From assembly GCA_963977015.1 (NCBI GenBank), contig CAXBMO010000030.1, positions 16,387-80,386 on the forward strand: DNA of 64,000 bases, in the 5' to 3' direction. The position numbers and the translations under genes are program-made. Below, in pieces: positions 1,120 through 19,553 of the stretch. Every line of letters begins with the position of its first letter. Position 1 is the first letter of the stretch. Under the pieces are notes generated by a model. It ran no database searches. It was not told the DNA's origin and worked only from the letters and a program-made list of their open reading frames with translations. The stretch is from an uncultured bacterium (lineage in GTDB: Bacteria > Verrucomicrobiota > Verrucomicrobiia > Verrucomicrobiales > DEV007).

Positions 1120-1125
1120 GCATCA

Positions 1126-1154: not shown

Positions 1155-1250
1155 GGCGAAACTTACGGGCAATTTCTCCGTTGGGCCGGAATTTGAGCCA
1201 AAATGCCGGAAACCGGGTTGGATCTGGTGATTTTGTCAGAATTCGGGGAC

Positions 1251-3152: not shown

Positions 3153-3254
3153 AATCTGGACTCACAGTGTTACCTCAATGCGCCAAAATGACAACCGACG
3201 AACGCACCGAGACGCGGTGGTGGGCGATGAAAACGTCCCTTCCCGGATTTTGGC

Positions 3255-3448
3255 GATCTTCGTGCGGAAAATCGAGACCTAGCCAATCCAGTCCGGAATC
3301 GGCTTGATCCCGGAATCGACGAGGTAGTGGGGGCGCCCGCGCGCGTCCTCAATCGTGGTCCGAACCGGATCGATGCCGATACAACGATAGAGGGTGGCGA
3401 AGACCTCCTGAAACTTGACGGGGCGCTGTGTGGGGGGGCATGCCTGTC
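3255..3448 (-). pseudogene. Isolated 3'-end remnant of a DUF1501 gene (copy 1)
   Basis: 3279-3422 aligns ungapped to 15915-16058 with about 12 mismatches in 144 nt (manual count); encodes PVKFQEVFATLYRCIGIDPVRTTIEDARGRPHYLVDSGIKPIPDWIG*; no start or upstream part. Confidence 0.9.
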
Positions 3449-3602
3449 TTCTTCGACCGATTCCTGATGTTCAGTTAGGAGCGTTTTACGGTTTCAAGTT
3501 TGGGAGGCGGCGCCAACCGGCGAACTTTTCGTGAGGTATTTCGTTACCAGATTTATCGACTTGGTCTTGTAACTGTGTAATCAAACACGCTAGCCTCAAA
3601 TC

Positions 3603-5495
3603 GTGGCACGGAACCAACTCTTCACTTCTCAAATTCGGCTCCCTATCTTCATCGGCATCGCGGCCTTGTCACTTGCCGGGATACTCGCACAACTCGAGCA
3701 TATTCGTGGATTTGACTGGCGCCTCTACGATTACGCGCTAAGCCAACGCCAGCCTACGGTTTTCGAGAACGTCGTCCTCGTTGGGGTGACCAACAGCGAT
3801 GTTTCGTGGCTCGACCAGCCTTTCCCGTGGTCGCGCGATCAACAATCGGTCATCTTCGAGAAAATCGCGAGTCAAAAACCCCGAGCGGTAGCTGTCGATT
3901 TTCTCTACACCGAACCATCGTCCGCGGAAAACGACCTTCGACTTGGGCGAGAACTGGCAGCTTGTGGTAAGCTGGCCGGGGCTTTTTATTTTGATACGGG
4001 GCCGCCTCCTGGCCCTGCCGAAACAGAGTTGCTAAAGGCAAGTGGCAATTTGCTTGGTGCTAATCTTGTAGACTCACGCTGGCCGAGGCCGCCCCATCAG
4101 CCCAAGCTCCCGGTTGCAAATGTGGCTGCTGGAATGACGCGGGTAGGGCACGCCATCACACTGCCGGATCCCGACGGCATCACCCGCCGGATTCCATTGT
4201 TGGCGAGCGACGGACAACGGCTTTATCCGGCGCTTGCGCTGCAAGGCGTGTTGCTGCATTGGGGCGCAGATTGGTCCCAAATCCGGGCGACTCCGCGGGA
4301 AATCACGATCGTTGGATTGCCTGGACAAAACTCGATTCGAATTCCCCTCGATGGAAAGGGCAACTTTCTCGCTCCGTTCCCGGTTCGAACCGACGAACGG
4401 TTTGTCGGGGTGAGTGTTCAGCAGTTGATGACACTTGAAGATGAGCTTCCCGAAATGGATGACAAGCTTGTTTTTGTTGGATCGCTCTTGACGGGGCATG
4501 GCGACATTTATCCCACGCCGGTCGAACCTGCGACCGCAGGGTTGATGATTAACGCGGCGGTTGCGGGCTTGATTTTGCAGGAGGAATTCGTCACACCGGC
4601 ACGATGGTGGATGGAAGCGTTATTGGCGGCAGTCGCCCTTCTATTTATTTGCGGGTTAGTTGCTCTAAAGCGACCTATCCTTTCGTTGTTGCTGAGCCTG
4701 ATCCTTCTTGCCGGGATCGTTGGACTTTCGATTTGGCTCCTCATTGATTTGGGCCGGTGGATTCCGCCGTCCTTTCCCGTGCTGGCCGGGGCTTTGGGAG
4801 CGTTTGCGCTCACCATTCAGAGTTTCGTTGCCGTCGAGACGCAGCGGAAGAACACGTTCGAGCTGCTTTCGCGGTTCTTGAGTCCCGCATTAGCTGCTAA
4901 GCTGGCCAAGGACCCCAACGCCATGAATCGGAAACCGGTGCGCAAAGAGTTGAGCGTGTTTTTCTCCGACATTGTGGATTACACCAATACTTCCGAGCGA
5001 CTCGAACCGGAGGACCTGTTCTCAGTGCTGGACCAATACTACAACGCGATGACCGAAGTGGCTTACCGGCACCACGGCACGGTCAACAAATACCTGGGCG
5101 ATGGCATGATGGTGTTCTTCAACGATCCCGTAGCACAGGAAGATCATGCGTTACTAGCCGTTCGCATGGCGGTCGATATGCAACGCGCGTTGAGCGAGCT
5201 GAATCGCCGGTTGGAAGAACAGGGCTTGCCGTCTCTACAGGCTCGCATGGGGGTTTGCACTGGCTATGCGACGGTTGGCAACGTGGGTTCCGGCGGTTTT
5301 GTGGATTATACCGCGATCGGGCCGACGGTAAATCTCGCGGCACGTGTCATGAATCTGGCTGGAGGTGGCGAGATCTACCTCTCCGAAAAGACATTGCTCG
5401 GAATTCAACCGGGCGAGTTTGACTTTGAAGATTTGGGACCCAAACCGGTCAAGGGATTCTCTGAGCCAGTCCGGGTTTACCGAGCAGACACGTAA
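3603..5495 (+). CDS. CHASE2-domain class III adenylate/guanylate cyclase
   Basis: N-terminal TM, CHASE2 motifs (PFPWSR, AVAVDFLY, DPDGITRRIPL), three TMs, cyclase motifs FFSDIVDYT, KYLGDGMM, DYTAIGPTVNLAAR. Confidence 0.92.
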   Translation: MARNQLFTSQIRLPIFIGIAALSLAGILAQLEHIRGFDWRLYDYALSQRQPTVFENVVLVGVTNSDVSWLDQPFPWSRDQQSVIFEKIASQKPRAVAVDFLYTEPSSAENDLRLGRELAACGKLAGAFYFDTGPPPGPAETELLKASGNLLGANLVDSRWPRPPHQPKLPVANVAAGMTRVGHAITLPDPDGITRRIPLLASDGQRLYPALALQGVLLHWGADWSQIRATPREITIVGLPGQNSIRIPLDGKGNFLAPFPVRTDERFVGVSVQQLMTLEDELPEMDDKLVFVGSLLTGHGDIYPTPVEPATAGLMINAAVAGLILQEEFVTPARWWMEALLAAVALLFICGLVALKRPILSLLLSLILLAGIVGLSIWLLIDLGRWIPPSFPVLAGALGAFALTIQSFVAVETQRKNTFELLSRFLSPALAAKLAKDPNAMNRKPVRKELSVFFSDIVDYTNTSERLEPEDLFSVLDQYYNAMTEVAYRHHGTVNKYLGDGMMVFFNDPVAQEDHALLAVRMAVDMQRALSELNRRLEEQGLPSLQARMGVCTGYATVGNVGSGGFVDYTAIGPTVNLAARVMNLAGGGEIYLSEKTLLGIQPGEFDFEDLGPKPVKGFSEPVRVYRADT

Positions 5496-5524
5496 AAAAG
5501 AACCTCTAACCATTAACCCTCACC

Positions 5525-6358
5525 ATGAAGTTTAGCTGCCCTGAATGTGAAACCAAAATAGAGGCAGGACCAGAGTGGTTCGGCCTGGATACACAGTGCC
5601 CTCATTGCCAACATCCCATTCACATTCCCAAACCTGTTTCATCGGGGCCCCAGAAACGTCATTCAAAGCCGCAGAAAACGGCGAAGAAGATTCCCGTGGG
5701 TGCTGTCGTCGGCATCTTTCTGGTGATTGGAGTTCTCATTCTGGTTCCCGTGACCATGCACTATCTGGATAACAAGGAGACGCCCCAACGGCCAAGTCGA
5801 ACGTATTCAGATTCGAGCGCGGCCGCTAAAGCAGCTGCACCCCAAAATGAGGTAGTAGAGGCACTTCCGGACCCGGAAGAGGAAGGGCCAAAAGTGTTGC
5901 GGGACCAGAATTCGAAGGGCTATATAAGTCTTGGCTCTTTAAAGAGTCGGCTTGAACTGGAAAATCACGTATTGCTGGATGTGTGTGGCGTTTATATCCA
6001 TGAGTTTGGGGATTTTTCTACGAGCGCGGTTTTCCAAAAAGATCGAAAGCCCGGTCACAAATTGGTAAAGGTGAGTATTGGTTTAGACTTTTCGGATGAC
6101 CCGTTTACGATTCACACCAAGAACGATACGTTCGTCCTGGCCAATGAGAAGACCACGGAATTCTACCCAGTGTGGGGAGTGTTTGATGCCTTTGGGGGGA
6201 GCGTTAGCCGAGGCAACATCACGGGGAAACTAACCACCAGTGGCGGAAGTAAGGCGGCACCTCATACAAAGATCATCAATCTCTACGAGATCCCCAGTAA
6301 TCTTGACCCAGGCAGATTGAGCCTTTGGTTCGATCCGGAATCCCAGAACGTAGATTGA
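5525..6358 (+). CDS. Zinc-ribbon, single-TM membrane protein
   Basis: N-terminal CPEC...CPHC, then a hydrophobic TM and a soluble domain; co-oriented in an operon. Confidence 0.75.
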   Translation: MKFSCPECETKIEAGPEWFGLDTQCPHCQHPIHIPKPVSSGPQKRHSKPQKTAKKIPVGAVVGIFLVIGVLILVPVTMHYLDNKETPQRPSRTYSDSSAAAKAAAPQNEVVEALPDPEEEGPKVLRDQNSKGYISLGSLKSRLELENHVLLDVCGVYIHEFGDFSTSAVFQKDRKPGHKLVKVSIGLDFSDDPFTIHTKNDTFVLANEKTTEFYPVWGVFDAFGGSVSRGNITGKLTTSGGSKAAPHTKIINLYEIPSNLDPGRLSLWFDPESQNVD

Positions 6359-6418
6359 CTTCCGAACGAGGGCAATGCGGCTTGATGCGCGAACGAAAGG
6401 TCCGATAGTGGATCGCGA

Positions 6419-8203
6419 ATGAGTTCCGCGAAAACCTGGGCTTGGCCGTCACCCACTCCGGAAGAACTGGATGCGCAAATCGACGCCTTCAAGGTTCATC
6501 GCCGTTTGGGACGCGGTGGGATGGGGGCTGTTTACCTGGCTACGCAGCTCAATTTAGAGCGCGAAGTCGCCATCAAACTGTTGCCCGAGCAACTCGCTGT
6601 CGATCCCGAGTTTGAGGCCCGTTTTAACCGCGAAGCTCGGCTCATGGCGAAGCTGGCCCACCCCAACATCGTCCCGGTGTTCGATTTTGGTGAGACTAAC
6701 GCCGGACACCGTTTTTACGTCATGGAGTATGTGCCGGGAGGGCATCTCGGAGAAGAAATGCGCGATGAAGGATTGCCAGTCGAGCGGGCTTTCAGCGTTT
6801 TTGGTCAAGTTTGCGCGGGGATGAAGCACGCCCACGATAAAGGATTGATTCATCGCGACCTCAAACCCGCCAATATCTTGCTTGGCGAAACCGGGTTCGT
6901 GAAAATCGGGGATTTTGGTCTGGCGAAGATGGTAGTCTCCACCGATTCTCGAGTCACGGAACAACTGGGATTGACCAACAGCCGCGCAGCCATGGGCACG
7001 CCAGACTATGCGGCCCCGGAACAGCTCAACGCGGAGCCTGTCGATCATCGCGCGGATCTCTACAGCCTGGGGGTTTTGCTCTACGAAATGCTGACCGGTT
7101 CCTTGCCGCGAGGCTCCTTTTCAGCGACTTCGTCGCGGAATCCGGATTGTCCACAATTCCTGGATGCGGTGATTGAGCGTGCCCTTCAACCGGAGCCTGG
7201 GGAGCGTTTTCAATCCGTCGAAGAGCTGCTTCAGGCCGTTCTTCCCGGTCAGCAGCTCCGCGCTAACTCCGTCTCAGTTCATCACGAAGCTCTGCCGTTT
7301 CCACCTTGCCCAGAACAACCGCTTTGCCGCATCGCCGTGATACCGGCTTCGCGAGATTCAGATTCCCTTCCGCCTTTTCAATGGTTCTCAGAAGTCGAGC
7401 AGAGTAACCACGGTGATCTTATCCAGATCGCCAGCCCTTCCGCGGGAAGCCACAAGCACCTGGTTGCCTTGAAAGGGACCGGCCGGGTTTGCTTTTTTGG
7501 AGGCGAGCCGGAGGAAGGCGAACTAATCAATCACGAAGAAAACGCCGCCTACGTCATCGCCAATCCGCCCCTCAAATTAACGAGTGAAGGACACTTGGTT
7601 GGAGGTGGTGCACCAGCTGGCGAGTTCAGTCAATTGCGGTGCGCTGACGGATTTGCCCTCGCGCTCCGCCGGGATGGCCAGGTCGTTGGGATCGGGCCCA
7701 AACTTAGCCGGCTCAACCAGGAGCCTCACGCTTTCGCCCTTCAGTCCGTCGTCCAAATTGAAGCATCGCGGACAGGTCATGCCGCTGCGTTGCACCATGA
7801 CGGCACGATTTCTGAGATTTTGACATCCGGGAGCACCTGCGAAGTTCGCCGAGATCAAACCCGCCATTACCAACGGCTCATTAGCGAAGGATTCGCCATC
7901 TGCACGGATGGCAGCCTGGCAACAATCGATCCGGAAAACCCGGAGTATGCCGACTTAAGCGAATCGCTTTCCGGGCTGCAACCCGAAACGATTGTTTCGA
8001 TCGAGCAGCGTCCGGCCTGGGCTTTGGTGCGACTTTCGGATGGGCAATGGCGGGTTTTGGCACGAGACCGGAGCACCGGCGGGAAGTTGGCGGAGATCGA
8101 TTCCGAATTCGCAGACGCATTGCGTGGAGCCGTTTCCGTATTCGGCTTGAGTGCCGGGCACGTCGTTCGCTTGGACTACTGCGTCGCTCTGTTTCCTGTC
8201 TGA
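6419..8203 (+). CDS. Hanks-type Ser/Thr protein kinase with a C-terminal RCC1-like propeller; no TM evident
   Basis: LGRGGMGAVY, VAIK, HRDLKPANILL, DFGLAK, GTPDYAAPE; C-terminal ALALRRDGQVV / AAALHHDGTI repeats. Confidence 0.93.
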   Translation: MSSAKTWAWPSPTPEELDAQIDAFKVHRRLGRGGMGAVYLATQLNLEREVAIKLLPEQLAVDPEFEARFNREARLMAKLAHPNIVPVFDFGETNAGHRFYVMEYVPGGHLGEEMRDEGLPVERAFSVFGQVCAGMKHAHDKGLIHRDLKPANILLGETGFVKIGDFGLAKMVVSTDSRVTEQLGLTNSRAAMGTPDYAAPEQLNAEPVDHRADLYSLGVLLYEMLTGSLPRGSFSATSSRNPDCPQFLDAVIERALQPEPGERFQSVEELLQAVLPGQQLRANSVSVHHEALPFPPCPEQPLCRIAVIPASRDSDSLPPFQWFSEVEQSNHGDLIQIASPSAGSHKHLVALKGTGRVCFFGGEPEEGELINHEENAAYVIANPPLKLTSEGHLVGGGAPAGEFSQLRCADGFALALRRDGQVVGIGPKLSRLNQEPHAFALQSVVQIEASRTGHAAALHHDGTISEILTSGSTCEVRRDQTRHYQRLISEGFAICTDGSLATIDPENPEYADLSESLSGLQPETIVSIEQRPAWALVRLSDGQWRVLARDRSTGGKLAEIDSEFADALRGAVSVFGLSAGHVVRLDYCVALFPV

Positions 8204-8303
8204 ACTGGGTGCATCGGCGTTACCTTACTCACGTACCGGGTATTTCAGGTATAGAACCCCAAACAACACTTGCTTGGTTTCCGGGGGCCGAGCATCCTTC
8301 CTC

Positions 8304-9845
8304 ATGAATCATCGTTGGACTCAGGCAGTTACCGTCACCGTGTTGGTGGTCGTAGGCAGCATCCACTCACAGGAGCAAAAACCGCCTCCAAGTCTCCTCG
8401 TCTTCAGCTCCAAAGGGAAAGTCAATGTCGGTGAGCGCATCGTCCCCGCCGCCCAGCGCGACATGCGGAACTTCGAAGCGAAACTCCAAGCAAAAGAGGT
8501 GGTCAGCACGGGCGCGGATGGCCAGGTTCAGCTGGGTGTTTTCGGCGAGGCGAAGGTTCTGCTCGCTCCCAATACCGTCGTGCGCGTTCCCGAGCCGGCA
8601 GCGCGGGCGGAAGACGTGGCCGTGATGGAGATCGAAAAAGGCCGGGCGTTTCTGCGGGTTGAGAAGCGGCCCGAACGGGAGTTTCGGCTCAGAACCCCCA
8701 CGATGACGATCGCCGTGCGTGGGACCGAGTTTTTCGTGAACGTATCGCCAAAAGGGGAAGTGGTGGGCACGCACCAGGGCGCGGTCGAGGTCGGCTTGGA
8801 ATTCGGCGGAAATCGGCGATTGGTGAACGTGCCGGCTGGCAAGGCCGTTGTCGCCAATGGAGAGGATGCGCCCCAGTTGCGCAACCTAACGGCCGGAGAG
8901 CAAAATCTGGCACGGATCTATGCGATGCTGGATATTCCGGTTTTGCCGCGGCCAAGGATTGCCGGGGATTTGCGTTCCTGGGTTTTTGGCAATCGCCGAG
9001 GTTGGGATGCGAGTTTCGCGGTGCCTAGAGCCGCGAGTGAAAACATGGTTCAACTGAGCATGGAACCTCAAACCATCATCAATGAAGGCCGAGTGGCTGC
9101 GATGCGAGCCGATGGCAAGTTGTTCGTATTTCAGGAAAACGAACTGGAAACCCCTGAGAATCTCGAACCCATCTCGGAAGTCCAGCTTTATCCAAAAGGC
9201 GTCGCCGTTTTGACCGAGAGGGGAATCATCCACAGCTGGGGAGCCTTCCAAGGGACACTGGAAGGAATAACGGCTATTCAGGCAACCCGGGAAGCGGTTC
9301 TAGGGATTGCACGCGATGGTTCTGTCAGAGGTGTTACCGTGAAAGGTGCCGAATCTTTCCCCCAAATCGACCCTGCGGATGGATTTGGATTTGTTGAAGG
9401 TGAGAACGGGGAATTTTTACTGTTTCGCGGAAAGAAACTCGAGCTTGGGCGAATTGACCGTGGAGTCGTGAGAAGCGATGAATTTAGGGTGGGCCAGGAT
9501 TGGGTTGAAGTCCACCACGGCACGTTCGATGCATGTTGGATTGACCGCAACGGTATGATCTTTTCCCAGGATCTGGGCAAGCTTGGCGAGCGGGCGCGAA
9601 AGGTTGTTCTGGCCGAAAACACGATCTTATGGATGGATGCCGATTTGGAATGGCACAGCCCGAAGATGGACCGATTCGAAGAGGAACGAAGCACGTTTCG
9701 CAAACTGGTTTCCGGTGCAGTGGATCTGGCGTTCGGCGACAGCCGGTTTTATGCAATCATTCCACGTGACCGGGAGAAGGCGAAGGAACTCGTGGAGGAA
9801 GAGTGGAAACTGAAATTGCGTCGCCGCGAGAATGTAGGAGATTAG
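8304..9845 (+). CDS. Exported FecR-domain protein with a C-terminal RCC1-like propeller
   Basis: Signal-like N-terminus from ATG 8304; FecR motifs VSTGADG, LRTPTMTIAVRGTEFFV; AAMRADGKL / AVLTERG / LGIARDGSV repeats. Confidence 0.8.
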   Translation: MNHRWTQAVTVTVLVVVGSIHSQEQKPPPSLLVFSSKGKVNVGERIVPAAQRDMRNFEAKLQAKEVVSTGADGQVQLGVFGEAKVLLAPNTVVRVPEPAARAEDVAVMEIEKGRAFLRVEKRPEREFRLRTPTMTIAVRGTEFFVNVSPKGEVVGTHQGAVEVGLEFGGNRRLVNVPAGKAVVANGEDAPQLRNLTAGEQNLARIYAMLDIPVLPRPRIAGDLRSWVFGNRRGWDASFAVPRAASENMVQLSMEPQTIINEGRVAAMRADGKLFVFQENELETPENLEPISEVQLYPKGVAVLTERGIIHSWGAFQGTLEGITAIQATREAVLGIARDGSVRGVTVKGAESFPQIDPADGFGFVEGENGEFLLFRGKKLELGRIDRGVVRSDEFRVGQDWVEVHHGTFDACWIDRNGMIFSQDLGKLGERARKVVLAENTILWMDADLEWHSPKMDRFEEERSTFRKLVSGAVDLAFGDSRFYAIIPRDREKAKELVEEEWKLKLRRRENVGD

Positions 9846-11608
9846 CGGCGAATCACTTGGTTGGGGCCTGACGGGCCCACTTTTTTGAGGTTGTCGCAAT
9901 TGGCAAGATCCAGAAATCGCAATTTGGGGTGATTGGCGAGTCCGTCGACCTCCTCCACGATTTCGGAATCCAAATCGAGGAACTCCAGATTTCTGAGAGG
10001 CGCCAAGTCCATGGTCCGGAAGCCGAGTCCACGTGCCTCAAGCCAGCGCAGGCGAGGGAAACTGGTCAGATCCTTGGACGTCGATTCGTCCACAGCATCG
10101 GGGGTGAAACTTTTTTCGAAGAAGGAAAGCTCCATCGCTTCGATGCTGTCGCGATTGCCGAATCGGCAAATCGTGCGCCAATTGTCCTCCTTAATGCCCC
10201 CTGCATTGAAGTATTTTAGTTCCTTGGGAGAACCGTAGCTGCGTAAAATGCCTTGGTCGTCTTGAATTGACAGCGTGAAATCCAGTTCAACGGCTCGAAG
10301 CTTCGGAAAGTGGGTTCCAGAAACCGGTTTGGAAATTCTCAGGATTTCCAGATTCGCGAGCGCTCCGCTTTTAGCCCACGTCGTAAAATCTTCCTCCGAT
10401 AAACCTCTTTCCTCCAGCAATTGAAGCTGATTGAGATTCGCGAATTCTTTCACTCCAGGATCGTTTTGAGGCCGCAGATCAGATAGCATCGTCAATGATC
10501 GGAGGTGCTGGAGCGAGCCGATTTCTGCCGGATCGACAATGATCCGAGCCAGATCGAGCCGCTCCAGGTTGCTGTTTTTGCTGAGACCGGTCCATTGAAC
10601 CGGTGCCGGATTTCTTGCCGCCATTTGGAGAATCCGTAAGTTCGTGAGCTTCGACAAAGCGAGTTGCAGATCTGCCGTAAGTTCAAAGCCCGAAAGAGAC
10701 AGATCCCGGACAGGAGGCAAGTCGGTAATCGGGATCGGTCCGGAATCTCGAGCGCCGCTGGCGCTGATCTTGAGCGCTTCGAGCGTGGTAAGGGCCGAGA
10801 GCGCCGACACCGTATCAATGGTGATGTCTGCATAAAGGGCTAAGGGCTTGTGCGTCGCGATAGCTTTCAGTCGTTCTGCATCAGGGGCCGAATCGAGAAA
10901 AAAAGCAACCGGCTTACCGCCGACTGGAGGCAGCGTGCTCAGTTCGACCCGATTGTCCCAGTTAAAGCAGACCGAGGCTCCAAACGGATGCGAGTTAGCT
11001 TTCAACGCTGCCTCGAAGCTATTCCCACGCTGTTGGTCATCACGGAAGATTCCAACAATCTCAGCAGGTCCCCCGTCTCTCGAGACCAGGAGGAACGGGC
11101 CGTCGGTTGAGAGCTTCCAGTGGGCTGCGCCATTGAAGCGGACGATGTGCTTGTGATAGGTTGACCCAGCGCGAACCTGCAAAATTACCCAGCCTCCAAT
11201 TGGCAGCAGCATCTCGGAAGTGGTGGCTCCGGTGGGGAACGATGCTGTCATTCGATTTGCGCCAATGTATTCCACCATTTCGGAGACGCTTGGTGGAGAG
11301 GGATGCTCGACGACCAAGGGTTGCCAAGGAGCACCCGGCGTAGTGGAGGCAGCGGGAGTTGTCGATTTCTGGCTTTTGATCCAGGCTTGATCCGCCGCGC
11401 TGAGACTAGCGAGTGGAAGCGTGAAGGTCTTTCCATCCGAGATGCGCCGAATCCTGACACTCGCCCCCTGCAACCCGAGAAATTCGGCTTTCAACTCGAC
11501 GCCTTTGGAATTGCGGAAGGTCCGGACTTCGGAGAACGCCGTTTGATTCATGATTGCGGCGATTACAAAAAGGACAGCTAAAACGATACGTAAGTGGGGT
11601 GACTTCAT
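9842..11608 (-). CDS. Secreted SHD1-domain plus leucine-rich-repeat protein
   Basis: Signal peptide from ATG 11608; SHD1 motif RTFRNSKGVELKAEFLG...LPLASLSAADQAWI; multiple LxxLxLxx repeats. Confidence 0.8.
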   Translation of the reverse strand: MKSPHLRIVLAVLFVIAAIMNQTAFSEVRTFRNSKGVELKAEFLGLQGASVRIRRISDGKTFTLPLASLSAADQAWIKSQKSTTPAASTTPGAPWQPLVVEHPSPPSVSEMVEYIGANRMTASFPTGATTSEMLLPIGGWVILQVRAGSTYHKHIVRFNGAAHWKLSTDGPFLLVSRDGGPAEIVGIFRDDQQRGNSFEAALKANSHPFGASVCFNWDNRVELSTLPPVGGKPVAFFLDSAPDAERLKAIATHKPLALYADITIDTVSALSALTTLEALKISASGARDSGPIPITDLPPVRDLSLSGFELTADLQLALSKLTNLRILQMAARNPAPVQWTGLSKNSNLERLDLARIIVDPAEIGSLQHLRSLTMLSDLRPQNDPGVKEFANLNQLQLLEERGLSEEDFTTWAKSGALANLEILRISKPVSGTHFPKLRAVELDFTLSIQDDQGILRSYGSPKELKYFNAGGIKEDNWRTICRFGNRDSIEAMELSFFEKSFTPDAVDESTSKDLTSFPRLRWLEARGLGFRTMDLAPLRNLEFLDLDSEIVEEVDGLANHPKLRFLDLANCDNLKKVGPSGPNQVIRR

Positions 11609-11680
11609 AACATGGTTGGGTTGACGAAGGTAAGTAGCGGTTCCGGGACGCGAGGTAACGCTTTGCGGCACAAGAAAAGA

Positions 11681-12589
11681 CTATTTCGCCAGATCGCGAG
11701 CGAGTTGCTGGCTCTCCGCGGATAGGTTTTCGAGCGAAATCTCCACCGCCCGGTTAGTGGATTTTAACAGCATTTTGACCTTTCCTTCGTTCAGCCCCAA
11801 AAACCGCCCCTGAATCGTTTTGGAACCATCCGCACTTTTCCACGGATGGAATTTTCGGAGTTCCGGCCTCAACTCCGCCTGAATGATCTCCAGGTCGTAT
11901 TCGCGCATCCTGTTGGCTCCCACTCTTTCCGTCACCCCCCATCGCAAACTCGCATGGGCGATGCGGCAAATCTCTCCGATAGCACCTGCCGCGTCTGTGG
12001 GTGCGACGGTGAAATCATAGCGCTGGGCAAAGGCGAATTTGTCACGGAGATGACTGACGCGATAAGATACTCCGTCGCGCTCGGGATCCTCGCGCTTGAC
12101 CATCTTGGACCAAGCCTCCACGGCCTCCAGGAATTCGGTGTCGCGAAGGCGGATTTCCGGCAGTTGGATGCTCCTGGCTTTAGCTTCGCCGGGCGGCAAG
12201 ACTCTGTCATCGATATCAACGTAGGAATCATTCCATTCGGCGGCTAGCATGGCCTTGGTGGTCTGAGCGTTGAACTCCTCGATGATTTTTTCCAGCGCAT
12301 CGTAAGCCGTGACGTTTTTGAGACTGAGGGTGAGCCGAGCGTCGTCAAAATGGTAGGAGATACTTTTGCGCTGTGAATAAACTCCGTAGCCTTTGGGATC
12401 GGCGGCTTTGGCCGCCTGCTTCCAGCGTTCAATCGCTTCTTCAACCGTTGCCTGGTTGAGTTGGAACGTAGTGAAGGTCAGGGATTTCCCTTTGGGAGGG
12501 CGTGGAGAACGCTGTTTGCTGGTTGTTTGTCCAAATGAGGCGCTCAACAGCGCAATCCAAATCATCCATAATAGAGTCCTGCCTTTCAT
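11681..12589 (-). CDS. Secreted protein with two STN-like segments and a C-terminal SHD1 domain
   Basis: Signal peptide; LTLSLKNVTAYDAL and LPEIRLRDTEFLEAV segments; SHD1 WKSADGSKTIQGRFLG...ISLENLSAESQQL. Confidence 0.7.
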   Translation of the reverse strand: MKGRTLLWMIWIALLSASFGQTTSKQRSPRPPKGKSLTFTTFQLNQATVEEAIERWKQAAKAADPKGYGVYSQRKSISYHFDDARLTLSLKNVTAYDALEKIIEEFNAQTTKAMLAAEWNDSYVDIDDRVLPPGEAKARSIQLPEIRLRDTEFLEAVEAWSKMVKREDPERDGVSYRVSHLRDKFAFAQRYDFTVAPTDAAGAIGEICRIAHASLRWGVTERVGANRMREYDLEIIQAELRPELRKFHPWKSADGSKTIQGRFLGLNEGKVKMLLKSTNRAVEISLENLSAESQQLARDLAK

Positions 12590-12681
12590 GATCGAAGGAT
12601 ATTCTCCCGGAAAAAACTTTTCGAGCATAAACTGCATCTTTGGCTTGTTCCGGAACGGCCTGCCATCAAAACTCAGTCCCT

Positions 12682-13404
12682 ATGGAGAAACCGAGTTTCT
12701 TTCCACAAACGCGATGGTCCTTGGTGCGTCAGGTCCAACAGGCTAACCCTGCCGAGCGCGAACATGCCCTTGAAGAACTTTGCCGGATTTACTGGAAGCC
12801 GCTCTACCGTTTTGCGCGCTCCCGGGGCCATTCCAAAGAAGATGCAGAAGATCAGGTCCAGGGATTTCTCGCCAACCTGCTAAAATACAACTCCTGGGCC
12901 ACCGTCGATGAGTCGAAAGGACGATTGCGGGCGTTTCTCTACCGCAGTTTTGAAAATCATCTCCGGAACTGCTGGCGCAAGGGCCAGGCTATTAAGAACG
13001 GGGGAGGCGTAAAATTACTATCCTTGGATTTCGACGATGCAGAATCCCTTTTGCCGATTGCCCATCCGGCCGAGGACTCCGCCAACCTCAGCTTTGATCG
13101 GCATTGGGCCGCCGCACTGGTTCAACAGGCCGTGAATAGAATTGAGGAGGAGTTTGACGAAAAGAAAACACGTCTCTTGGCTGCTTTGCGTCCCCATTTC
13201 GTCCCTGGAATCGGAGGAGGGAAACCCTACGCGGAAATTGCCGTCGAATTGAACCAAAGTGAGGCCTCCATCAAGATGGCGGTGAAACGCTTGCGGGAAA
13301 AACTGCGAAACCGGCTGGAGGGTGCAGTGATGGAAACGGTTGATAGCCAGGAAGCCGCCGAGGAAGAATTGCGCTACCTGTTCGACCTGCTCAATCTGGA
13401 GTGA
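12682..13404 (+). CDS. ECF sigma-70 factor of the PVC kinase-associated type
   Basis: FPQTRWSLV N-terminus, YWKPLYRFAR, DAEDQVQGFL, KGRLRAFL, region 4 YAEIAVELNQSEASIKMAVKRLR. Confidence 0.9.
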   Translation: MEKPSFFPQTRWSLVRQVQQANPAEREHALEELCRIYWKPLYRFARSRGHSKEDAEDQVQGFLANLLKYNSWATVDESKGRLRAFLYRSFENHLRNCWRKGQAIKNGGGVKLLSLDFDDAESLLPIAHPAEDSANLSFDRHWAAALVQQAVNRIEEEFDEKKTRLLAALRPHFVPGIGGGKPYAEIAVELNQSEASIKMAVKRLREKLRNRLEGAVMETVDSQEAAEEELRYLFDLLNLE

Positions 13405-13516
13405 GGCTGCTTCCAAGTGGAAGACCGCATAACGGATATCTTGCCTGCGATTCCCAGGAAGCGGTTTCTTTCCGTTTGTCGATAGCGAATTGAATTGGGC
13501 GTCGCAATCGTGATTT

Positions 13517-13569
13517 GATCTTCGCGCGGAAAATCGAGACTCAGCCGATCCATTCCGGAATCGGCCTGA
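13517..13569 (-). repeat. Short DUF1501 3'-end copy (copy 2), including 24 nt downstream of the stop
   Basis: GATCTTCGCGCGGAAAATCGAGACTCAGCCGATCCATTCCGGAATCGGCCTGA matches 3255-3307 and, from the stop codon on, 15915-15943; encodes RPIPEWIG*. Confidence 0.85.
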
Positions 13570-13961
13570 GCCACTCCGACATCGATGTGCTGGAAAAAGC
13601 TAGCCAAGCCCTCCTTGCCGAGATGAACCGGTTCGAAACCGCGCGCGACGTCAGTGACGATTACAACAAGGGCAAATCCCAGCTCGACTTCACCCTGCTG
13701 CCGGAAGGCCGCGCCCTCGGACTCACCAGTGCCGAAGTCGGCCAGCAAGTGCGCGACGCTTTCTACGGTGCGCTGGCCCTGCGCCAATTGCGCGGCACCA
13801 ACGAAGTCGAAGTTCGGGTCAAACTGCCGCTCGCCGAACGCCAGGACATCCATCACCTCGAAGAACTCGTCATCTTGACCCCGGCGGGAACCGAAGTCCC
13901 CCTGCTCGACGTCCTTCAGGTCGAACGCGGCGAAGCCTTCACCACCATCAACCGCAATGGC
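13566..13961 (+). pseudogene. Internal fragment of an AcrB/AcrD/AcrF-family RND transporter
   Basis: [41 protein letters not shown]...EVEVRVKLP...VPLLDV...TTINRNG is a periplasmic segment of RND permeases; about 130 aa with no native start or TMs. Confidence 0.85.
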
Positions 13962-14000
13962 AACCTGTACCAAAAAGCAAAAAACTATCGACAGACCACC

Positions 14001-14597
14001 TCAGATGTTCGATTCGCCGACGTTTTCGAGGTCTGCTGGAGGCTGCGTGGGTTTTGCAATCGCAGCTCGAAGTTCCTTGCGATACCGGCGTTCTATGAAC
14101 ATGCGTGGAGGGCGACTCGTCAACCCATCGTTGCTTTCACGTTTCCAATTCTGAAAAAGTAGATGTTGTTCATGAGCGATGGCAGTCTCGAGCTGCTCCA
14201 GAAACTTATCAAAAAGATCATCGCTCTTCCTTACCTTGAAATAGACGGTTCTTTCATTCAAAAGCGCGGCCTCCCCTTTTCTTAGTTCGAACGACTCAAC
14301 TTTTGCGTCGAGGGTGAATCGGAATCCCTTAATGAACGGCGAGTAGACCTTGAGGTTCGTCTTAATTCGATATGTGTGCTTAGGAAGAATAAGATACGCA
14401 AACCAAATGGTGAATGGAATTAGAATGATCCCAGTGATTAGTAGTGTTAGGAAGAACTTGGGGAAGAATGGTACCTTTAAGAAGAAAGATGTAATGAATC
14501 CAGCGAGTGCGATGATTGCTATTACGCCTAGGAAAATAGTCGCATTCTTTGCGAACGGAGAAATTTTGAAAATTGCCTGAAGGATCTTCGTAGTCAT
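14001..14597 (-). CDS. Hypothetical 2-TM membrane protein, probable second gene cassette
   Basis: AT-rich ORF with two hydrophobic helices, starting about 35 nt after the attC R' site. Confidence 0.6.
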
Positions 14598-14631
14598 TTA
14601 GGACGTATTGTTCTTGGTTTCCTCATATTCT

Positions 14632-14758
14632 GGCGAACGTCCGAGCGCTGGCACCCGCTACGGGTTGCGCAGCGTCGCAACAGGGTTAAGAATTCGAGTA
14701 AAGAGGGTCATGTCGACTCGCCAGCGGTAGCGGGTTGCTCAGCCGCGTCTTGTTCGAT
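14632..14758 (-). mobile_element. Integron attC recombination site (127 bp)
   Basis: R'' ATCGAAC (14758-14752) and R' GTTCGCC (14638-14632); arms GCGGCTGAGCAACCCGCTAC / GTAGCGGGTGCCAGCGC pair with unpaired extra bases; overlaps the 3' end of the DUF2971 ORF. Confidence 0.8.
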
Positions 14759-15559
14759 CTCGTTGGTTATGATTCGGAAGTCCGTTGGATGACGCTCCGC
14801 CTGCAGAATTTTAGCGTGAGGATAGTCGTCTTTCGCAATTTCAATGATCTCACGACGGAGTTCCTCCGGGGCACGGCATCCGATGACGACCTCACGGACT
14901 GCCTCTGGAGGAAACTCTAGAAAATGCATCTTTCTGCCCTTGATTTCACGTTCAGTGCAGACCTGCCATGCGATGATAATTCTGTATTCATCCTCGTATG
15001 ACCACTCCGGTGACTTCGTTTTCATTACTCGCCGGTATGGATCATCTGGATCGGCATTGAATAATGGATGATATTCGCCTCTCTCCGTGGAATAGATCAC
15101 ACGGTGCAAAACGTCTTCGAAGTGATCTGAGTCAAATCCGATCGCGATACCCCTGTGGTTGTCAGCGTAGTGTGACCATAAAAGGATGTTTTCCCGGCCA
15201 CCGCAAAAGCAACATACTCCTAAGCGCTTTCCGGCGGCATCATAAAATCGTTCAGGGCTCGCCGCGCCGTGGCCTGTATACGTTGAGAAGATGGTATCGA
15301 CCCAGCTCTCTTCATCCTTACGAATCTCTTCCTTAAAGGCGTCGAAATCGAGTAGGCACCCATTCGAAACTTGGATCTCATAAAAATTCTGCAGAAAGCT
15401 AGGATTGTTGAGCTTGATTCTCGCATGCTCCCGATTCACATTAGCCATTCGCGGGAAAAACTCAAACGGGTCATTGAACTCGGAAGGCTGTGAAATCTTA
15501 AACTCTCGCTTTTGGAGCGTCGCGGGGCCAAATCCACCCGTGTATTTGTAGATTATCAT
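14708..15559 (-). CDS. DUF2971 domain-containing protein (gene cassette)
   Basis: IYKY, SQPSEFNDPFE, ILLWSHYADNHRGIAIGF, KSPEWSYEDEYRII, EVVIGCR. Confidence 0.88.
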   Translation of the reverse strand: MIIYKYTGGFGPATLQKREFKISQPSEFNDPFEFFPRMANVNREHARIKLNNPSFLQNFYEIQVSNGCLLDFDAFKEEIRKDEESWVDTIFSTYTGHGAASPERFYDAAGKRLGVCCFCGGRENILLWSHYADNHRGIAIGFDSDHFEDVLHRVIYSTERGEYHPLFNADPDDPYRRVMKTKSPEWSYEDEYRIIIAWQVCTEREIKGRKMHFLEFPPEAVREVVIGCRAPEELRREIIEIAKDDYPHAKILQAERHPTDFRIITNEIEQDAAEQPATAGEST

Positions 15560-15563
15560 TTGG

Positions 15564-15602
15564 ATCGAACTGTGGATATCCTGCAGAATTGCAGGAATAT
15601 CC
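15564..15602 (-). mobile_element. attI-like (or attG-like) cassette insertion site
   Basis: Minus strand GGATATTCCTGCAATTCTGCAGGATATCCACAG|TTCGAT; GTTCGAT is the exact complement of the cassette R'' ATCGAAC; imperfect palindrome just upstream. Confidence 0.55.
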
Positions 15603-15718
15603 TTTTATAGTCAACATTCTTGCAGGGAGAATTGTGTATTAGGACGGGGAGGAATGCCGGGCATAGCGGTGGGTGAATTTTCCATGATTGCCTTGGCTTA
15701 CTGCCGCCTTTGGTGGGA

Positions 15719-15747
15719 ATGCTAGTGCGACGAATGGGGAGTGTCAA
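15719..15747 (-). promoter_or_regulatory. Pc-like sigma70 promoter facing the cassettes
   Basis: TTGACA (15747-15742), 17-nt spacer, TAGCAT (15724-15719). Confidence 0.65.
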
Positions 15748-15914
15748 GCTTTTGGAGGCGTGGCGGTTTCGCGGGTTGAGGCTTAGGAATTCGGATAGAT
15801 TTTCCGGAATTCGCCCTGCGAGGTTGTCAAGATATCACGGGAACCTGGGACGATCGGAAAAACGATTTTACCATGCGCCCCGGAAGAGGCGCCAGAAGCA
15901 GGATCCTGACGCGC

Positions 15915-17282
15915 TCAGCCGATCAATTCCGGAATCGGCTTGATCCCGGAATCCACGAGATAGTGTGGGCGGCCGCGCGCGTCCTCAATCGTGGTCCGGA
16001 CCGGATCGATGCCGATACAATGATAGAGGGTGGCGAAGACCTCTTGAAACTTGACGGGTCGTTCCGTGGGCGCGGTTCCATGCTTGTCGGTCGCGCCGAT
16101 GACCTGACCGGTGTTCATCCCGCCGCCCGCCATCAGAGCAAAACTCGCTCTGGGCCAATGATCGCGGCTGTTGAGCTTGTTCAGTTTCGGGGTGCGGCCG
16201 AATTCGCCCCAAACGACGACGGCGACATCGCGGTCGAGCCCGCGCAAATGAAGATCTTCCAGCATCGCGGCCAAGCCTTGGTCCAGCATCGGGAAATCTT
16301 CGCGTGCCCGTTTGAAATTGAAGAGGTCGGCGGTGCCATGCCAATCCCAGCGACTGAAGTTCAGGCTGACAACTCGGGCGCCGGCTTCGACCAATCGCAG
16401 CGCGACCAGAAAGTTGCGAATCATCTTGGGCGGACCGTCGTAAGTGTAAATCGGATCATCCACGCCGTAGCGCGCCACGACCTTGGGATCTTCCTTGGAA
16501 AGATCGAGCGCGTCGGTGAGTTTGGAACCTGTCAGGATGTCGAGCGCTTGTTGGTGATAGACGTTGAGGCCATCGCCTTCTCCCACCGCATCCGCGTCGC
16601 GCTGAAACGTGTTGAGGGCGTCTCGCAAGCGAGTCCGATCGTCGAGGCGATCCAGCGTGATGCCCCGCAGGCCGATGTCTTGAGGTTTCGAGAGTGGATC
16701 GCGTTCCACCAGATTCATCGGTTTGTGGGCGGGGCCGACAAACCCTCCACCGTAGGGTTCGCCCCAGTTCCCGCCTTTGCTGGGATACATCATCGCGAGA
16801 TTGGCTGGAACTCCTGCATTGGAACCGGCCACTTTGGAGACCCAGGCCCCAAAATTGGGCCAACCTCCGGGAGGCGCCGCCGGATCCAGCTTTCGCCGGC
16901 CCGTCATGCATTGATGAGGATCGTGCCGGCCTTCGCTGTCGGCGATGGAACGGATGATGGCGAATTTGTCGGCGCATTTGGCGAGGTTGGGGAACAACTC
17001 GCAGAATTCCATCCCGGGCACGTTGCTCTTGATCGGTTGGAATTCGCCCCGGATTTCGCGCGGAGCCCCCGGCTTCATGTCGAACATGTCGAGGTGGGGA
17101 GGACCGCCCGGCAAAAAGATATTGATGATGGCCTTGTGAGAGCTTCCGACGTTCTGCCTGGCCTCGGCAGCGAGGAGTTGAGGGAGCGAAAGCCCGCCCG
17201 CAGCCATGCCGCCGATATTGAGAAAATGCCGTCGTGGAGCTCTTCCTCGGCGCGAGTTGGGTTTGTCGAAAAGCGTGATCAT
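15915..17282 (-). CDS. DUF1501 domain-containing protein
   Basis: Tat-like RRHFL leader, IFLPGGPPHLDMFDMKP, WDWHG, VWGEFGRTPK, RDHWP; true start ATG 17282. Confidence 0.93.
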   Translation of the reverse strand: MITLFDKPNSRRGRAPRRHFLNIGGMAAGGLSLPQLLAAEARQNVGSSHKAIINIFLPGGPPHLDMFDMKPGAPREIRGEFQPIKSNVPGMEFCELFPNLAKCADKFAIIRSIADSEGRHDPHQCMTGRRKLDPAAPPGGWPNFGAWVSKVAGSNAGVPANLAMMYPSKGGNWGEPYGGGFVGPAHKPMNLVERDPLSKPQDIGLRGITLDRLDDRTRLRDALNTFQRDADAVGEGDGLNVYHQQALDILTGSKLTDALDLSKEDPKVVARYGVDDPIYTYDGPPKMIRNFLVALRLVEAGARVVSLNFSRWDWHGTADLFNFKRAREDFPMLDQGLAAMLEDLHLRGLDRDVAVVVWGEFGRTPKLNKLNSRDHWPRASFALMAGGGMNTGQVIGATDKHGTAPTERPVKFQEVFATLYHCIGIDPVRTTIEDARGRPHYLVDSGIKPIPELIG

Positions 17283-17402
17283 GACAGGGTGCCTGTTCCT
17301 TACACGTTCCCAGGCGACGGATTGTTTCGACCGTGGGGAGCCTATTCTTTTTCCGTATCGCGAGGACTCGACTTCAGAGTCTGTCTCCTCCAAGATTTCA
17401 GG

Positions 17403-18581: not shown

Positions 18582-18644
18582 GGCTCGCTCCAATCTTCCA
18601 AAATTGTGGCTGGAAATTGCGGCGGATCTCCCCAACATCCTCCT

Positions 18645-19538: not shown

Positions 19539-19553
19539 GGTAATTCTCGGCTG

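What the first reader, a model, noticed from the sequence alone, without database searches (positions are those of the whole stretch)
3255..16090. Three copies of one DUF1501 3' end bracket two cargo blocks: a tandem-accretion hotspot with no integrase
Seen: the intact gene ends at 15915 (KPIPELIG*). A remnant of about 170 nt with roughly 92% identity lies at 3279-3448 (KPIPDWIG*), and a 53-nt copy lies at 13517-13569 (RPIPEWIG*). All are in the same orientation. The two distal copies also share 24 nt downstream of the stop that the intact gene lacks. Between the copies are a 10-kb signalling cluster and a 2.3-kb block with an AcrB fragment and integron cassettes. Established: integrative elements that target a gene 3' end restore the gene and displace the old end. 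Inference: successive insertions used this protein-coding 3' end as an attachment or recombination anchor. Because DUF1501 is highly multicopy in PVC genomes, it could be a general landing pad for accessory DNA. No recombinase is encoded in the interval.
Basis: partly seen in the sequence, partly recalled or inferred. Interest (0 to 1): 0.78.

Follow-up and report, generated by a model that had tools for sequence, protein, structure and literature searches.

The report
Displaced DUF1501 gene ends bracket inserts
Two dead copies of the last part of one planctomycete gene lie downstream of the working gene and bracket blocks of accessory DNA; they look like scars of past recombination that gave the gene a new end, not a working docking site for mobile elements.

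Summary
On the minus strand an intact DUF1501 gene (15915-17282) is followed by a 53-nt copy of its end (13517-13569) and a 170-nt copy (3279-3448). The two copies share a 24-nt tail that the intact gene lacks. None of this occurs elsewhere in the 6.9-Mb genome.

No recombinase, tRNA, integron integrase or attC-like site lies in or near the interval. None of 5 relatives has an empty site. The short copy is joined by a 6-of-7-nt microhomology to a 392-nt AcrB relic, and the closest relative has a full AcrB operon downstream of its DUF1501 orthologue.

The long copy differs from the intact gene mostly at third codon positions, so it was once a working gene end. Of 74 DUF1501 genes, only this locus and one other have orphan pieces, and all detected orphans are C-terminal.

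Best reading (0.5): homology-anchored insertions, by single crossover or homology-facilitated illegitimate recombination, that pushed older ends downstream, as at rhs and type VI secretion loci. Rivals are decayed tandem paralogues and an att site served in trans.

Earlier notes of this scan report displaced gene ends in other genomes. Interest is modest.

The parts
1251..3152 (-). thrS (threonyl-tRNA synthetase), the conserved flank downstream of copy A
   Evidence: Pfam tRNA-synt_2b, HGTP_anticodon, tRNA_SAD. 82-83% nt identity to G001, G002 and G003. Homology to G003 ends at window 3204.
3255..3278 (-). 24-nt tail after the stop of copy A
   Evidence: 23 of 24 identical to 13517-13540. Absent after the intact gene and after the orthologues of G002, G001 and G006.
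3279..3448 (-). Copy A: displaced DUF1501 3' end (...KPIPDWIG*), with a clean match to about 3430
   Evidence: Bias towards third-position differences.
3449..13516 (.). Block 1, a signalling cluster: CHASE2-cyclase 3603-5495(+), hypothetical 5525-6358(+), Ser/Thr kinase 6419-8203(+), FecR protein 8151-9845(+), LRR protein 9842-11671(-), hypothetical 11681-12637(-), ECF sigma 12640-13404(+)
   Evidence: Pfam. No nucleotide counterpart in G001, G002, G003 or G006 apart from kinase-domain paralogues. Best cyclase homologue is 47% aa in another genus, without synteny. GC 54.9% against 56.0% for the genome.
13517..13540 (-). 24-nt tail after the stop of copy B
13541..13569 (-). Copy B: last ~23-29 nt of DUF1501 plus stop (RPIPEWIG*). 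Its 5' edge overlaps the AcrB homology by a GCCTGA/GCTTGA microhomology
13564..13955 (+). AcrB relic (about aa 676-809 of a ~1030-aa pump), broken at both ends
   Evidence: Pfam ACR_tran positions 680-809 of 1021. 86.6% nt identity to the full-length AcrB of G002, which lies convergent downstream of G002's DUF1501 orthologue. G000 has no full orthologue of that operon.
13956..15914 (.). Block 2', low-GC insert: 198-aa ORF 14001-14597(-) and a DUF2971 / PDC-S31-like candidate defence gene 14708-15559(-)
   Evidence: GC 48.6%. Pfam DUF2971. PADLOC PDC-S31, E 1.2e-38. The 198-aa ORF has no family.
15915..17282 (-). Intact DUF1501 gene (455 aa)
   Evidence: Pfam PF07394. Orthologues at 88% (G002), 78% (G001) and 69% (G006) nt identity. 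Identity to G002 is even along the gene.
17300..18581 (+). Beta-helix protein gene, divergent from DUF1501 (start approximate)
   Evidence: Pfam Beta_helix on the + frame. Conserved together with DUF1501 in G002.
18606..19538 (+). Esterase gene, the conserved flank on the other side of the variable interval
   Evidence: Pfam Esterase. In G003 it lies 4.7 kb from thrS, with unrelated genes between.

Best explanation
The two partial copies are scars of at least two recombination events. In each, DNA carrying a homologous DUF1501 end plus foreign downstream genes was joined into the resident gene, and the older end was pushed downstream. The gene acted as a homologous anchor, not as a site-specific att site.

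Most likely order (inferred):
1. A fragment holding a DUF1501 end, the 24-nt tail and block 1 went in. This was either a single crossover of a circularised piece or one homologous end plus one illegitimate end. It left the older end (copy A plus tail) next to thrS.
2. A fragment holding a DUF1501 end, the low-GC block with a candidate defence gene, and part of AcrB went in. Its far end joined illegitimately 23-29 nt before the resident stop, at a GCCTGA/GCTTGA microhomology. This left copy B plus tail.

Shown: the copies, their uniqueness, the microhomology joint, the coding-type divergence of copy A, the absence of a recombinase, and the variable content of the interval in relatives.

Inferred: the order of events, the donors, and which recombination pathway acted.
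For: - The copies are real and unique to this locus.
- The 5' edge of copy B sits on a 6-of-7-nt microhomology with an AcrB relic. HFIR joints typically show 3-10 bp microhomology (PMC3240628, passages read).
- In E. coli, single crossover of circular molecules carrying part of a gene leaves direct duplications of 109-950 bp around the insert (same paper). Copy A plus tail is about 194 nt.
- A and the intact end differ by 13 nt in 147, split 0/3/10 over codon positions. Of 12 differing codons, 9 are synonymous and 3 are not (binomial p = 0.0016). Without the stop codon the count is 9 of 11 at position 3. The two ends therefore diverged as working genes and A was displaced later.
- A is closer to the intact end (91.7%) than either is to G002 (83.4% and 86.2%), which points to a donor or paralogue within this lineage.
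- Block 1 is missing from 4 of 4 relatives searched (3 same-genus genomes and G006 of a neighbouring genus) at nucleotide level. Block 2' has 48.6% GC against 56.0% for the genome and carries a PDC-S31-like gene.
- No recombinase appears in 23 ORFs of the first ~19.5 kb of the window (interval and flanks), 46 of 72 ORFs of the rest of the window, or 14 ORFs of the contig's first 16.5 kb. The 6 PF00589 hits of the genome all lie on other contigs.
- Orphan DUF1501 pieces in the genome are only C-terminal: 0, 0, 0, 0, 3 over five segments.
- The same layout is described for rhs loci: partial cores as direct repeats of varying length, about 92% identical to the gene upstream, with a low-GC trough and no dedicated recombinase. 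[quoted passage not shown] For Vibrio T6SS arrays it is explained by HFIR (PMC5361080, passages).
Against: - No donor sequence and no intermediate allele was found, so the order and pathway of events are inferred.
- Only one of the four breakpoints could be tested for microhomology.
- Both proposed illegitimate joints fall within the last 170 nt of the same gene. This is a coincidence unless proximity to the anchor, or selection to spare thrS, explains it.
- The intact gene shows no mosaic step in identity to G002 (84-93% in 150-nt windows), so an imported 3' part is not visible.
- HFIR is rare where it has been measured, and natural transformation is not known to me for this group.
- A deletion between two tandem paralogues would give the same copy B joint.
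Confidence: 0.5

Rival explanations
1. Decayed tandem paralogues. The locus once held two or three full-length, closely related DUF1501 genes in tandem, each with its own downstream DNA. Deletions, one of them running from inside AcrB to 23-29 nt before a paralogue's stop, removed their 5' parts and left only the ends. No insertion used the gene.
For: - DUF1501 has 74 full-length copies in this genome and 45-101 matches in five other genomes, so gene turnover is high.
- The coding-type divergence of A fits a former working paralogue as well as it fits a displaced allele.
- The copy B/AcrB microhomology joint is what a simple deletion would leave.
- The two orphan ends on contig C16 best match two different G002 paralogues, at 85% and 84%, so they may be separate relics.
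Against: - No other paralogue in the genome is close at nucleotide level. The next best match to the 3' end is 79% over 43 nt.
- Random decay should leave pieces of any part of the gene, yet orphans are 0, 0, 0, 0, 3 over five segments.
- A and B share a 24-nt tail that then stops abruptly at the same base. This needs a duplication of end plus tail, not just decay.
- No tandem copies exist at the orthologous loci of G002, G001 or G006.
Confidence: 0.22
2. True site-specific tandem accretion. The DUF1501 end, with or without the tail, is an att site. Integrative elements inserted one after another, and their recombinase was lost or acts in trans (a host tyrosine recombinase or a Xer-type enzyme).
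For: - Same-strand direct repeats of 49-53 nt (90% identical) flank the 10-kb block 1.
- The repeats lie at a gene 3' end that stays intact, and the cargo is accessory.
- The last 22 nt of the gene form an imperfect palindrome (read directly).
- The genome encodes 6 tyrosine recombinases elsewhere.
- Orphans are 3'-only, at two loci.
Against: - No recombinase lies in the interval, the window or the contig.
- Copy lengths differ (170 nt against about 26 nt of gene end), and the homology edges do not define one core.
- The copy B edge is a joint inside an AcrB relic, and AcrB lies downstream of DUF1501 in G002 as well.
- No empty site was found in 5 relatives.
- The tail and core are found nowhere else: own genome, 0 hits in genome contigs, and only the same genome in metagenome contigs.
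- The C16 orphans end in a different sequence with no such palindrome.
- 72 of 74 DUF1501 genes show no orphan end.
Confidence: 0.15
3. Assembly artefact. The metagenome-assembled contig is a chimera joined through the repeated DUF1501 ends.
For: The genome is a 51-contig metagenome assembly. The only other records holding the locus, two metagenome scaffold pieces, are 100% identical to it and so are not independent.
Against: - The copies are not identical. The longest exact runs are about 26 nt between A and the intact end, and 15 nt between A and B (read directly), which is too short and too diverged to mislead an assembler.
- The homology edges are a microhomology joint and a decayed edge, not switches inside a repeat.
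- Short contigs from four other runs match the interval without differences, and one (423 nt, 13589-14011) bridges the AcrB/block 2' junction.
Confidence: 0.03

Closest known systems
C-terminal (3'-end) displacement arrays at rhs loci (Jackson et al. 2009, PMC2935791; abstract and section 10 read)
   Same: An intact gene is followed on the same strand by partial copies of its own 3' region. These copies vary in length and are about 92% identical to the gene upstream. Low-GC foreign DNA sits directly downstream. There is no dedicated recombinase. The proposed mechanism is homologous recombination with circular intermediates that displaces the old end.
   Different: At rhs loci each displaced piece carries a different toxin tip and usually an immunity gene, and diversity of tips is the point. 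Here the displaced ends are homologous to the current end, the gene is not a polymorphic toxin, and the cargo is unrelated (a signalling cluster and a candidate defence gene).
Sequential displacement of T6SS effector-immunity modules in Vibrio cholerae, explained by homology-facilitated illegitimate recombination (Kirchberger et al. 2017, PMC5361080; passages read)
   Same: A conserved upstream sequence serves as the anchor and the far end joins illegitimately. Successive events shift older 3' ends and downstream genes further back. No integrase is involved.
   Different: There the retained genes are immunity genes under selection. Here nothing suggests that the displaced pieces are kept for a function, and only two events are seen in one genome.
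HFIR and single-crossover integration measured in E. coli (PMC3240628; passages read)
   Same: One homologous end combines with a microhomology joint of 3-10 bp. Single crossover of circles carrying part of a gene leaves direct duplications of 109-950 bp around the insert. This compares with about 194 nt for copy A plus tail, and a 6-of-7-nt microhomology at copy B.
   Different: Those are laboratory events with plasmids. Here the pathway is inferred from scars, and DNA uptake routes in this organism are unknown.
Integrative elements that target the 3' end of a tRNA or protein gene and accrete in tandem (textbook knowledge, recalled)
   Same: Direct repeats flank accessory DNA. The target gene stays intact and older ends lie distal.
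   Different: This locus has no integrase, no common core of fixed length, no empty site in relatives and no reuse of the site elsewhere. One repeat edge is an illegitimate joint.

Membership tests
att-flanked integrative element / tandem accretion at a gene 3' end | Direct repeats (att core) at both ends of the inserted block | tested here: met
   A and B share 49 nt at 89.8% around the 10-kb block 1. B and the intact end share 26 nt at 96.2% around the 2.3-kb block.
att-flanked integrative element / tandem accretion at a gene 3' end | A site-specific recombinase encoded in or beside the element | tested here: not met
   Pfam found no recombinase or transposase in 23 ORFs of the first ~19.5 kb of the window (interval and flanks), 46 of 72 ORFs of at least 180 aa in 19-64 kb, or 14 ORFs of the contig's first 16.5 kb. 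All 6 PF00589 hits lie on other contigs. Serine recombinases and transposases were not searched genome-wide.
att-flanked integrative element / tandem accretion at a gene 3' end | An empty site (gene end directly followed by the distal flank) in relatives | tested here: not met
   In 0 of 5 relatives (G001, G002, G003, G006, G013) is thrS preceded by a DUF1501 end. In G001 and G002 the orthologue and thrS lie on different contigs. G003 links thrS to the esterase through unrelated genes. These are different species, so strain-level alleles remain untested.
att-flanked integrative element / tandem accretion at a gene 3' end | The same core reused at other sites or in other genomes | tested here: not met
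   There is no other copy in the own genome. The tail gave 0 hits in genome contigs. The 2 metagenome hits are the same genome. No extra copies occur at 3 orthologous loci.
att-flanked integrative element / tandem accretion at a gene 3' end | Excision products (circle junction or restored site) | tested here: inconclusive
   Only short, low-depth contigs of 4 runs could be laid, so the test has too little power.
3'-end (C-terminal) displacement array (rhs / cdiA-CT / T6SS type) | An intact gene followed on the same strand by partial 3' copies of varying length that closely match the gene upstream | tested here: met
   170 nt at about 92% and about 26 nt at 96%.
3'-end (C-terminal) displacement array (rhs / cdiA-CT / T6SS type) | Foreign, compositionally distinct DNA directly after the current gene end | tested here: met
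   Region 13956-15914 has 48.6% GC, against 56.0% for the genome and 60.2% for the gene. Homology to G002 stops at the stop codon.
3'-end (C-terminal) displacement array (rhs / cdiA-CT / T6SS type) | Variable toxin tips with cognate immunity genes | tested here: not met
   The displaced ends encode the same C-terminus as the current gene, with 3 of 48 residues differing. No toxin or immunity family lies in the interval.
3'-end (C-terminal) displacement array (rhs / cdiA-CT / T6SS type) | Displaced ends were once functional (coding-type divergence) | tested here: met
   The 13 differences fall 0/3/10 over codon positions, p = 0.0016.
Integron cassette array | An integron integrase (IntI) with attI next to the array | tested here: not met
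   No tyrosine recombinase lies on contig C30, and none appears among the window ORFs scanned.
Integron cassette array | attC sites after each cassette | tested here: inconclusive
   4 short inverted repeats occur in 13380-16000, and by eye none has the R''/R' consensus as I recall it. No attC covariance model was available.
DUF1501 (PF07394) protein family | A full-length match to the Pfam profile above the gathering score | tested here: met
   The intact gene scores 267.7 bits over profile positions 2-389 of 390. Copy A matches only the last ~50 residues.

The most novel reading that the evidence does not exclude
The end of DUF1501 genes is a real recombination target in planctomycetes. A short, partly palindromic gene-end sequence would be recognised by a recombinase or nuclease encoded elsewhere in the genome. 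Accessory DNA, including defence genes, would then be loaded just after the stop codon and older ends would pile up downstream. This would explain why every orphan DUF1501 piece in this genome is a 3' end and why homology between G000 and G002 breaks exactly at the stop codon.
Probability: 0.1. Interest if true: 0.7.

Novelty: new variant of a known kind. Interest (0 to 1): 0.35.

Why it matters
If the reading is right, the layout known from polymorphic-toxin loci also arises at an ordinary, highly multicopy gene in a marine planctomycete. That layout is a working gene followed by its own pushed-aside ends. Here it brings in unrelated cargo: a 10-kb signalling cluster and a candidate phage-defence gene.

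This suggests that homology-anchored insertion without any mobile-element machinery helps build accessory regions in genomes with few classical mobile elements. It also shows that displaced gene ends can date and order such events.

The evidence is one locus in one metagenome-assembled genome, so it remains an example rather than a rule.

Tried and rejected
- **Tail pattern in genome contigs:** 0 hits. In metagenome contigs there were 2 loci, both 100% identical to the window, so the same genome and no independent allele.
- **Read laying:** four marine runs of one study hold the strain only as short contigs at depth about 2-8. The 8 joints listed lie inside thrS, the cyclase gene or DUF1501 and look like other organisms. 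None links two of the three copies. With such data this says nothing for or against excision.
- **Origin of block 1:** the best cyclase homologue among 81 family genomes is 47% aa in G043, with no shared neighbours except an unrelated DUF1501 paralogue 4 kb away. No donor was found.
- **Orphan survey in other genomes with PF07394:** the listing is capped at the 150 best rows, so fragments were not visible. The generality of orphan ends outside G000 remains untested.
- **Mosaic test of the intact gene against G002 and G001:** no step in identity.
- **Homology beyond the tail (A against B), or downstream of the intact stop:** not above shuffles, with 205, 311 and 212 of 500 shuffles reaching the score.
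- **thrS promoter inside copy A or the tail as a reason for its survival:** 0 sigma-70-like sites in 3100-3650. The tail is also not conserved upstream of thrS in relatives, where homology ends at 3155-3204. The scan covers only one promoter type.
- **tRNA, tmRNA or known RNA as the real target:** none in 1-22000.
- **Homing-endonuclease-type cassette.** This idea was prompted by earlier notes of the scan.
  - The two genes after the intact stop are a DUF2971/PDC-S31-like protein and a 198-aa ORF with no family.
  - The 198-aa ORF has only weak Atlas matches to small membrane-protein clusters, and its model is poor (pLDDT 0.46).
  - No nuclease family was detected, and neither protein was folded.
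- **The C16 pair (F1, F2) as a second clear case:** they are 82% alike over 92 nt, and homology ends at the stop. However, they best match two different G002 paralogues, and their codon-position bias is weak (5/3/9, p = 0.075). They may be two separate relics.
- **Papers:**
  - 'DUF1501' with 'genomic island' gave 2 papers, neither on this subject by title and abstract.
  - No paper describing displaced DUF1501 ends was found with that one search.
  - The original HFIR paper (PMC122324) is not held. What I say of it comes from the papers that cite it.

Full report
**1. The observation**

All elements lie on the minus strand.
- The intact DUF1501 gene runs 17282 to 15915 and ends ...KPIPELIG*.
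- Copy A (3279-3448) reads ...RPVKFQEVFATLYRCIGIDPVRTTIEDARGRPHYLVDSGIKPIPDWIG*. It matches the intact end over 131 nt at 94.7% by blastn, or 133 of 145 aligned nt.
- Upstream of about 3430 the similarity carries indels and is not significant on its own.
- Copy B (13517-13569) ends RPIPEWIG*.
- A and B share 49 nt at 89.8%, including a 24-nt tail after the stop (23 of 24). The intact gene lacks this tail.
- In the whole 6.89-Mb assembly no other match to any copy or to the tail exceeds 19 nt, although the genome has 74 full-length DUF1501 genes.

It is not chance or ordinary paralogy.

**2. Gene content**

Pfam gives the following map.

| Coordinates (strand) | Gene or feature |
|---|---|
| 67-744 (-) | infC |
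| 1251-3152 (-) | thrS |
| 3255-3448 (-) | tail and copy A |
| 3603-5495 (+) | CHASE2-adenylate/guanylate cyclase |
| 5525-6358 (+) | hypothetical |
| 6419-8203 (+) | Ser/Thr kinase |
| 8151-9845 (+) | FecR-domain protein |
| 9842-11671 (-) | LRR protein |
| 11681-12637 (-) | hypothetical |
| 12640-13404 (+) | ECF sigma factor |
| 13517-13569 (-) | tail and copy B |
| 13564-13955 (+) | AcrB fragment |
| 14001-14597 (-) | 198-aa ORF without family |
| 14708-15559 (-) | DUF2971 protein |
| 15915-17282 (-) | DUF1501 |
| ~17300-18581 (+) | divergent beta-helix gene |
| 18606-19538 (+) | esterase |

- The DUF2971 protein matches the PADLOC candidate defence family PDC-S31 over nearly its full length (E 1.2e-38).
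- GC is 48.6% for 13956-15914, against 56.0% for the genome, 54.9% for block 1 and 60.2% for DUF1501.
- No tRNA and no Rfam family lies in 1-22000.
- No recombinase or transposase was found in the ORFs scanned: 23 in the first ~19.5 kb of the window (interval and flanks), 46 of the 72 ORFs of at least 180 aa in 19-64 kb, and 14 in the contig's first 16.5 kb.
- The genome's 6 tyrosine recombinase matches are all on other contigs.

**3. Relatives**

Orthologues of the intact gene occur in G002 (88% nt), G001 (78%) and G006 (69%).
- In G002 the beta-helix gene and DUF1501 are conserved up to the stop codon. There follow a 161-aa ORF, a TIR/FGE-sulfatase protein, and a full, convergent AcrB-MFP-OMP operon.
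- The window's AcrB fragment is 86.6% identical to that AcrB and has the same orientation. G000 has no full orthologue of the operon.
- The AcrB piece is therefore a relic linked to DUF1501 since before the two species split. It is broken at about aa 676 and aa 809.
- At the first break the AcrB homology and the DUF1501 homology of copy B overlap by GCCTGA against GCTTGA. This is a microhomology joint.
- The downstream DNA of the orthologue differs in G001, G002 and G006. None of these three loci has extra copies of the gene end.
- thrS has a different upstream neighbour in each of G001, G002, G003, G006 and G013. None of them has a DUF1501 end there.
- G003 links thrS and the esterase by 4.7 kb of unrelated genes: sulfatase, PQQ-propeller and TPR. 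The whole interval 3205-18596, intact gene included, is thus variable.
- In G002 the DUF1501 block lies in a 15.3-kb segment between two genes that are adjacent in G000 on contig C33. The block therefore sits at different chromosomal places in the two species.
- Block 1 has no nucleotide counterpart in G001, G002, G003 or G006. The best cyclase homologue among 81 family genomes is 47% identical and shows no synteny.

**4. What the copies were**

A and the intact end differ at 13 of 147 nt. By codon position these are 0 first, 3 second and 10 third. Of the 12 differing codons, 9 are synonymous and 3 are not (binomial p = 0.0016). Leaving out the stop codon gives 9 of 11 at third positions.

The two ends therefore diverged while both were working genes, and A became a dead piece only later. 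This excludes a recent local duplication followed by neutral decay.

A is closer to the intact end (91.7%) than either is to G002 (83.4% and 86.2%). The gene-end part of B is nearer to the intact end (25 of 26 nt; by eye 1 difference against 4 to A over the last 24 nt), while its tail is that of A (23 of 24). The A/B homology stops abruptly after the tail.

**5. Is it general?**

I built profiles of five ~80-residue segments from the genome's own 73 paralogues and scanned all six-frame ORFs.
- Orphan matches outside full-length genes numbered 0, 0, 0, 0 and 3. The three are C-terminal: copy A and two pieces on contig C16. Copy B is too short to detect.
- The C16 pieces are co-oriented, 3566 nt apart and 82% alike over 92 nt. 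Their homology ends at the stop, and they bracket two genes on the other strand.
- However, they best match two different G002 paralogues and show weak codon bias. They may be two separate relics.
- So 72 of 74 DUF1501 genes show no orphan end. A 3'-specific process is suggested, but a 'general landing pad' is not shown. I could not survey orphans in other genomes.

**6. Mechanism**

It also matches what Kirchberger et al. propose for Vibrio T6SS arrays, namely homology-facilitated illegitimate recombination in which successive events shift old 3' ends back (PMC5361080, passages).

In E. coli, HFIR joints show 3-10 bp microhomology, and single crossover of circles holding part of a gene leaves direct duplications of 109-950 bp (PMC3240628, passages).

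I therefore read the locus as two homology-anchored insertions.
1. The first brought the tail and block 1 and left copy A plus tail (about 194 nt) beside thrS.
2. The second brought block 2' and the AcrB piece and left copy B.

The rivals are as follows.
- **Decay of tandem paralogues by deletion.** This fits the copy B joint and the coding-type divergence. It fits poorly with the 3'-only orphans and with the shared tail.
- **A true att site served in trans.** This fits the direct repeats. It fails on the recombinase, the empty site, reuse of the core, and the illegitimate edge.
- **Mis-assembly.** This is unlikely, because the copies are too diverged and a contig from another run bridges one junction.

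**7. Verdict**

The gene end marks where accessory DNA went in and old ends were displaced. The evidence points to homology-anchored recombination rather than a dedicated attachment site, and the integron and landing-pad claims are not supported.

Earlier notes of this scan describe displaced ends of other genes in other genomes. I did not test them. The kind of scar is therefore not new, and this is a variant with an unusual gene and cargo.

Noticed in passing
G000 contig C16, locus L021:8727-8882 and L021:12347-12462 (+): This is a second locus with two orphan DUF1501 C-terminal pieces. They are co-oriented, 3566 nt apart and 82% alike over 92 nt, and their homology ends at the stop codon. 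They bracket a 265-aa gene and an 830-aa gene on the other strand. A full-length, unrelated DUF1501/PSCyt2-PSD1 pair starts 290 nt after the second piece. The two pieces best match two different G002 paralogues.
   Followed up: partly
G002 locus L011:~1100-16424 versus G000 contig C33:47516-50320: A 15.3-kb segment of G002 lies between two genes that are adjacent in G000. The segment holds three unknown ORFs, beta-helix, DUF1501, TIR/FGE-sulfatase and AcrB-MFP-OMP. In G000 the two flanking genes are about 690 nt apart, with two small minus-strand ORFs between them. The DUF1501 block thus sits at different chromosomal places in two species of one genus, and no recombinase was seen.
   Followed up: partly
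window 14708-15559 (-): The DUF2971 protein matches the PADLOC candidate single-gene defence family PDC-S31 (E 1.2e-38) in a 48.6% GC block just after the DUF1501 stop. G002 has a TIR-domain/FGE-sulfatase protein at the corresponding place. Both look like defence-type cargo at the same spot.
   Followed up: partly
window 3603-13404: This 10-kb cluster holds a CHASE2-cyclase, a hypothetical gene, a Ser/Thr kinase, a FecR-domain protein, an LRR protein, a second hypothetical gene and an ECF sigma factor. It has no nucleotide counterpart in four relatives (three same-genus genomes and G006 of a neighbouring genus). It may be a lineage-specific signalling module.
   Followed up: partly
window 8704-8752: The two metagenome scaffold pieces that hold this locus (L020 = window 1-8703, L019 = window 8753-21286) leave 49 nt between them. 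The genome's contig fills this gap without N, and the FecR ORF reads through it.
   Followed up: no
window 14653-14735: A 17-nt inverted repeat (82% complementary, 49 nt between the arms) spans the DUF2971 stop. One contig of run X1 differs at 13 places in 14662-14712, which suggests a variant strain or another organism there.
   Followed up: no
window 61407-63998 (-) and 23156-26602 (+): A Roc-COR GTPase with LRR and a weak TIR domain, and a 1149-aa Ser/Thr kinase. They add to the many signalling proteins of eukaryote-like type in this window.
   Followed up: no
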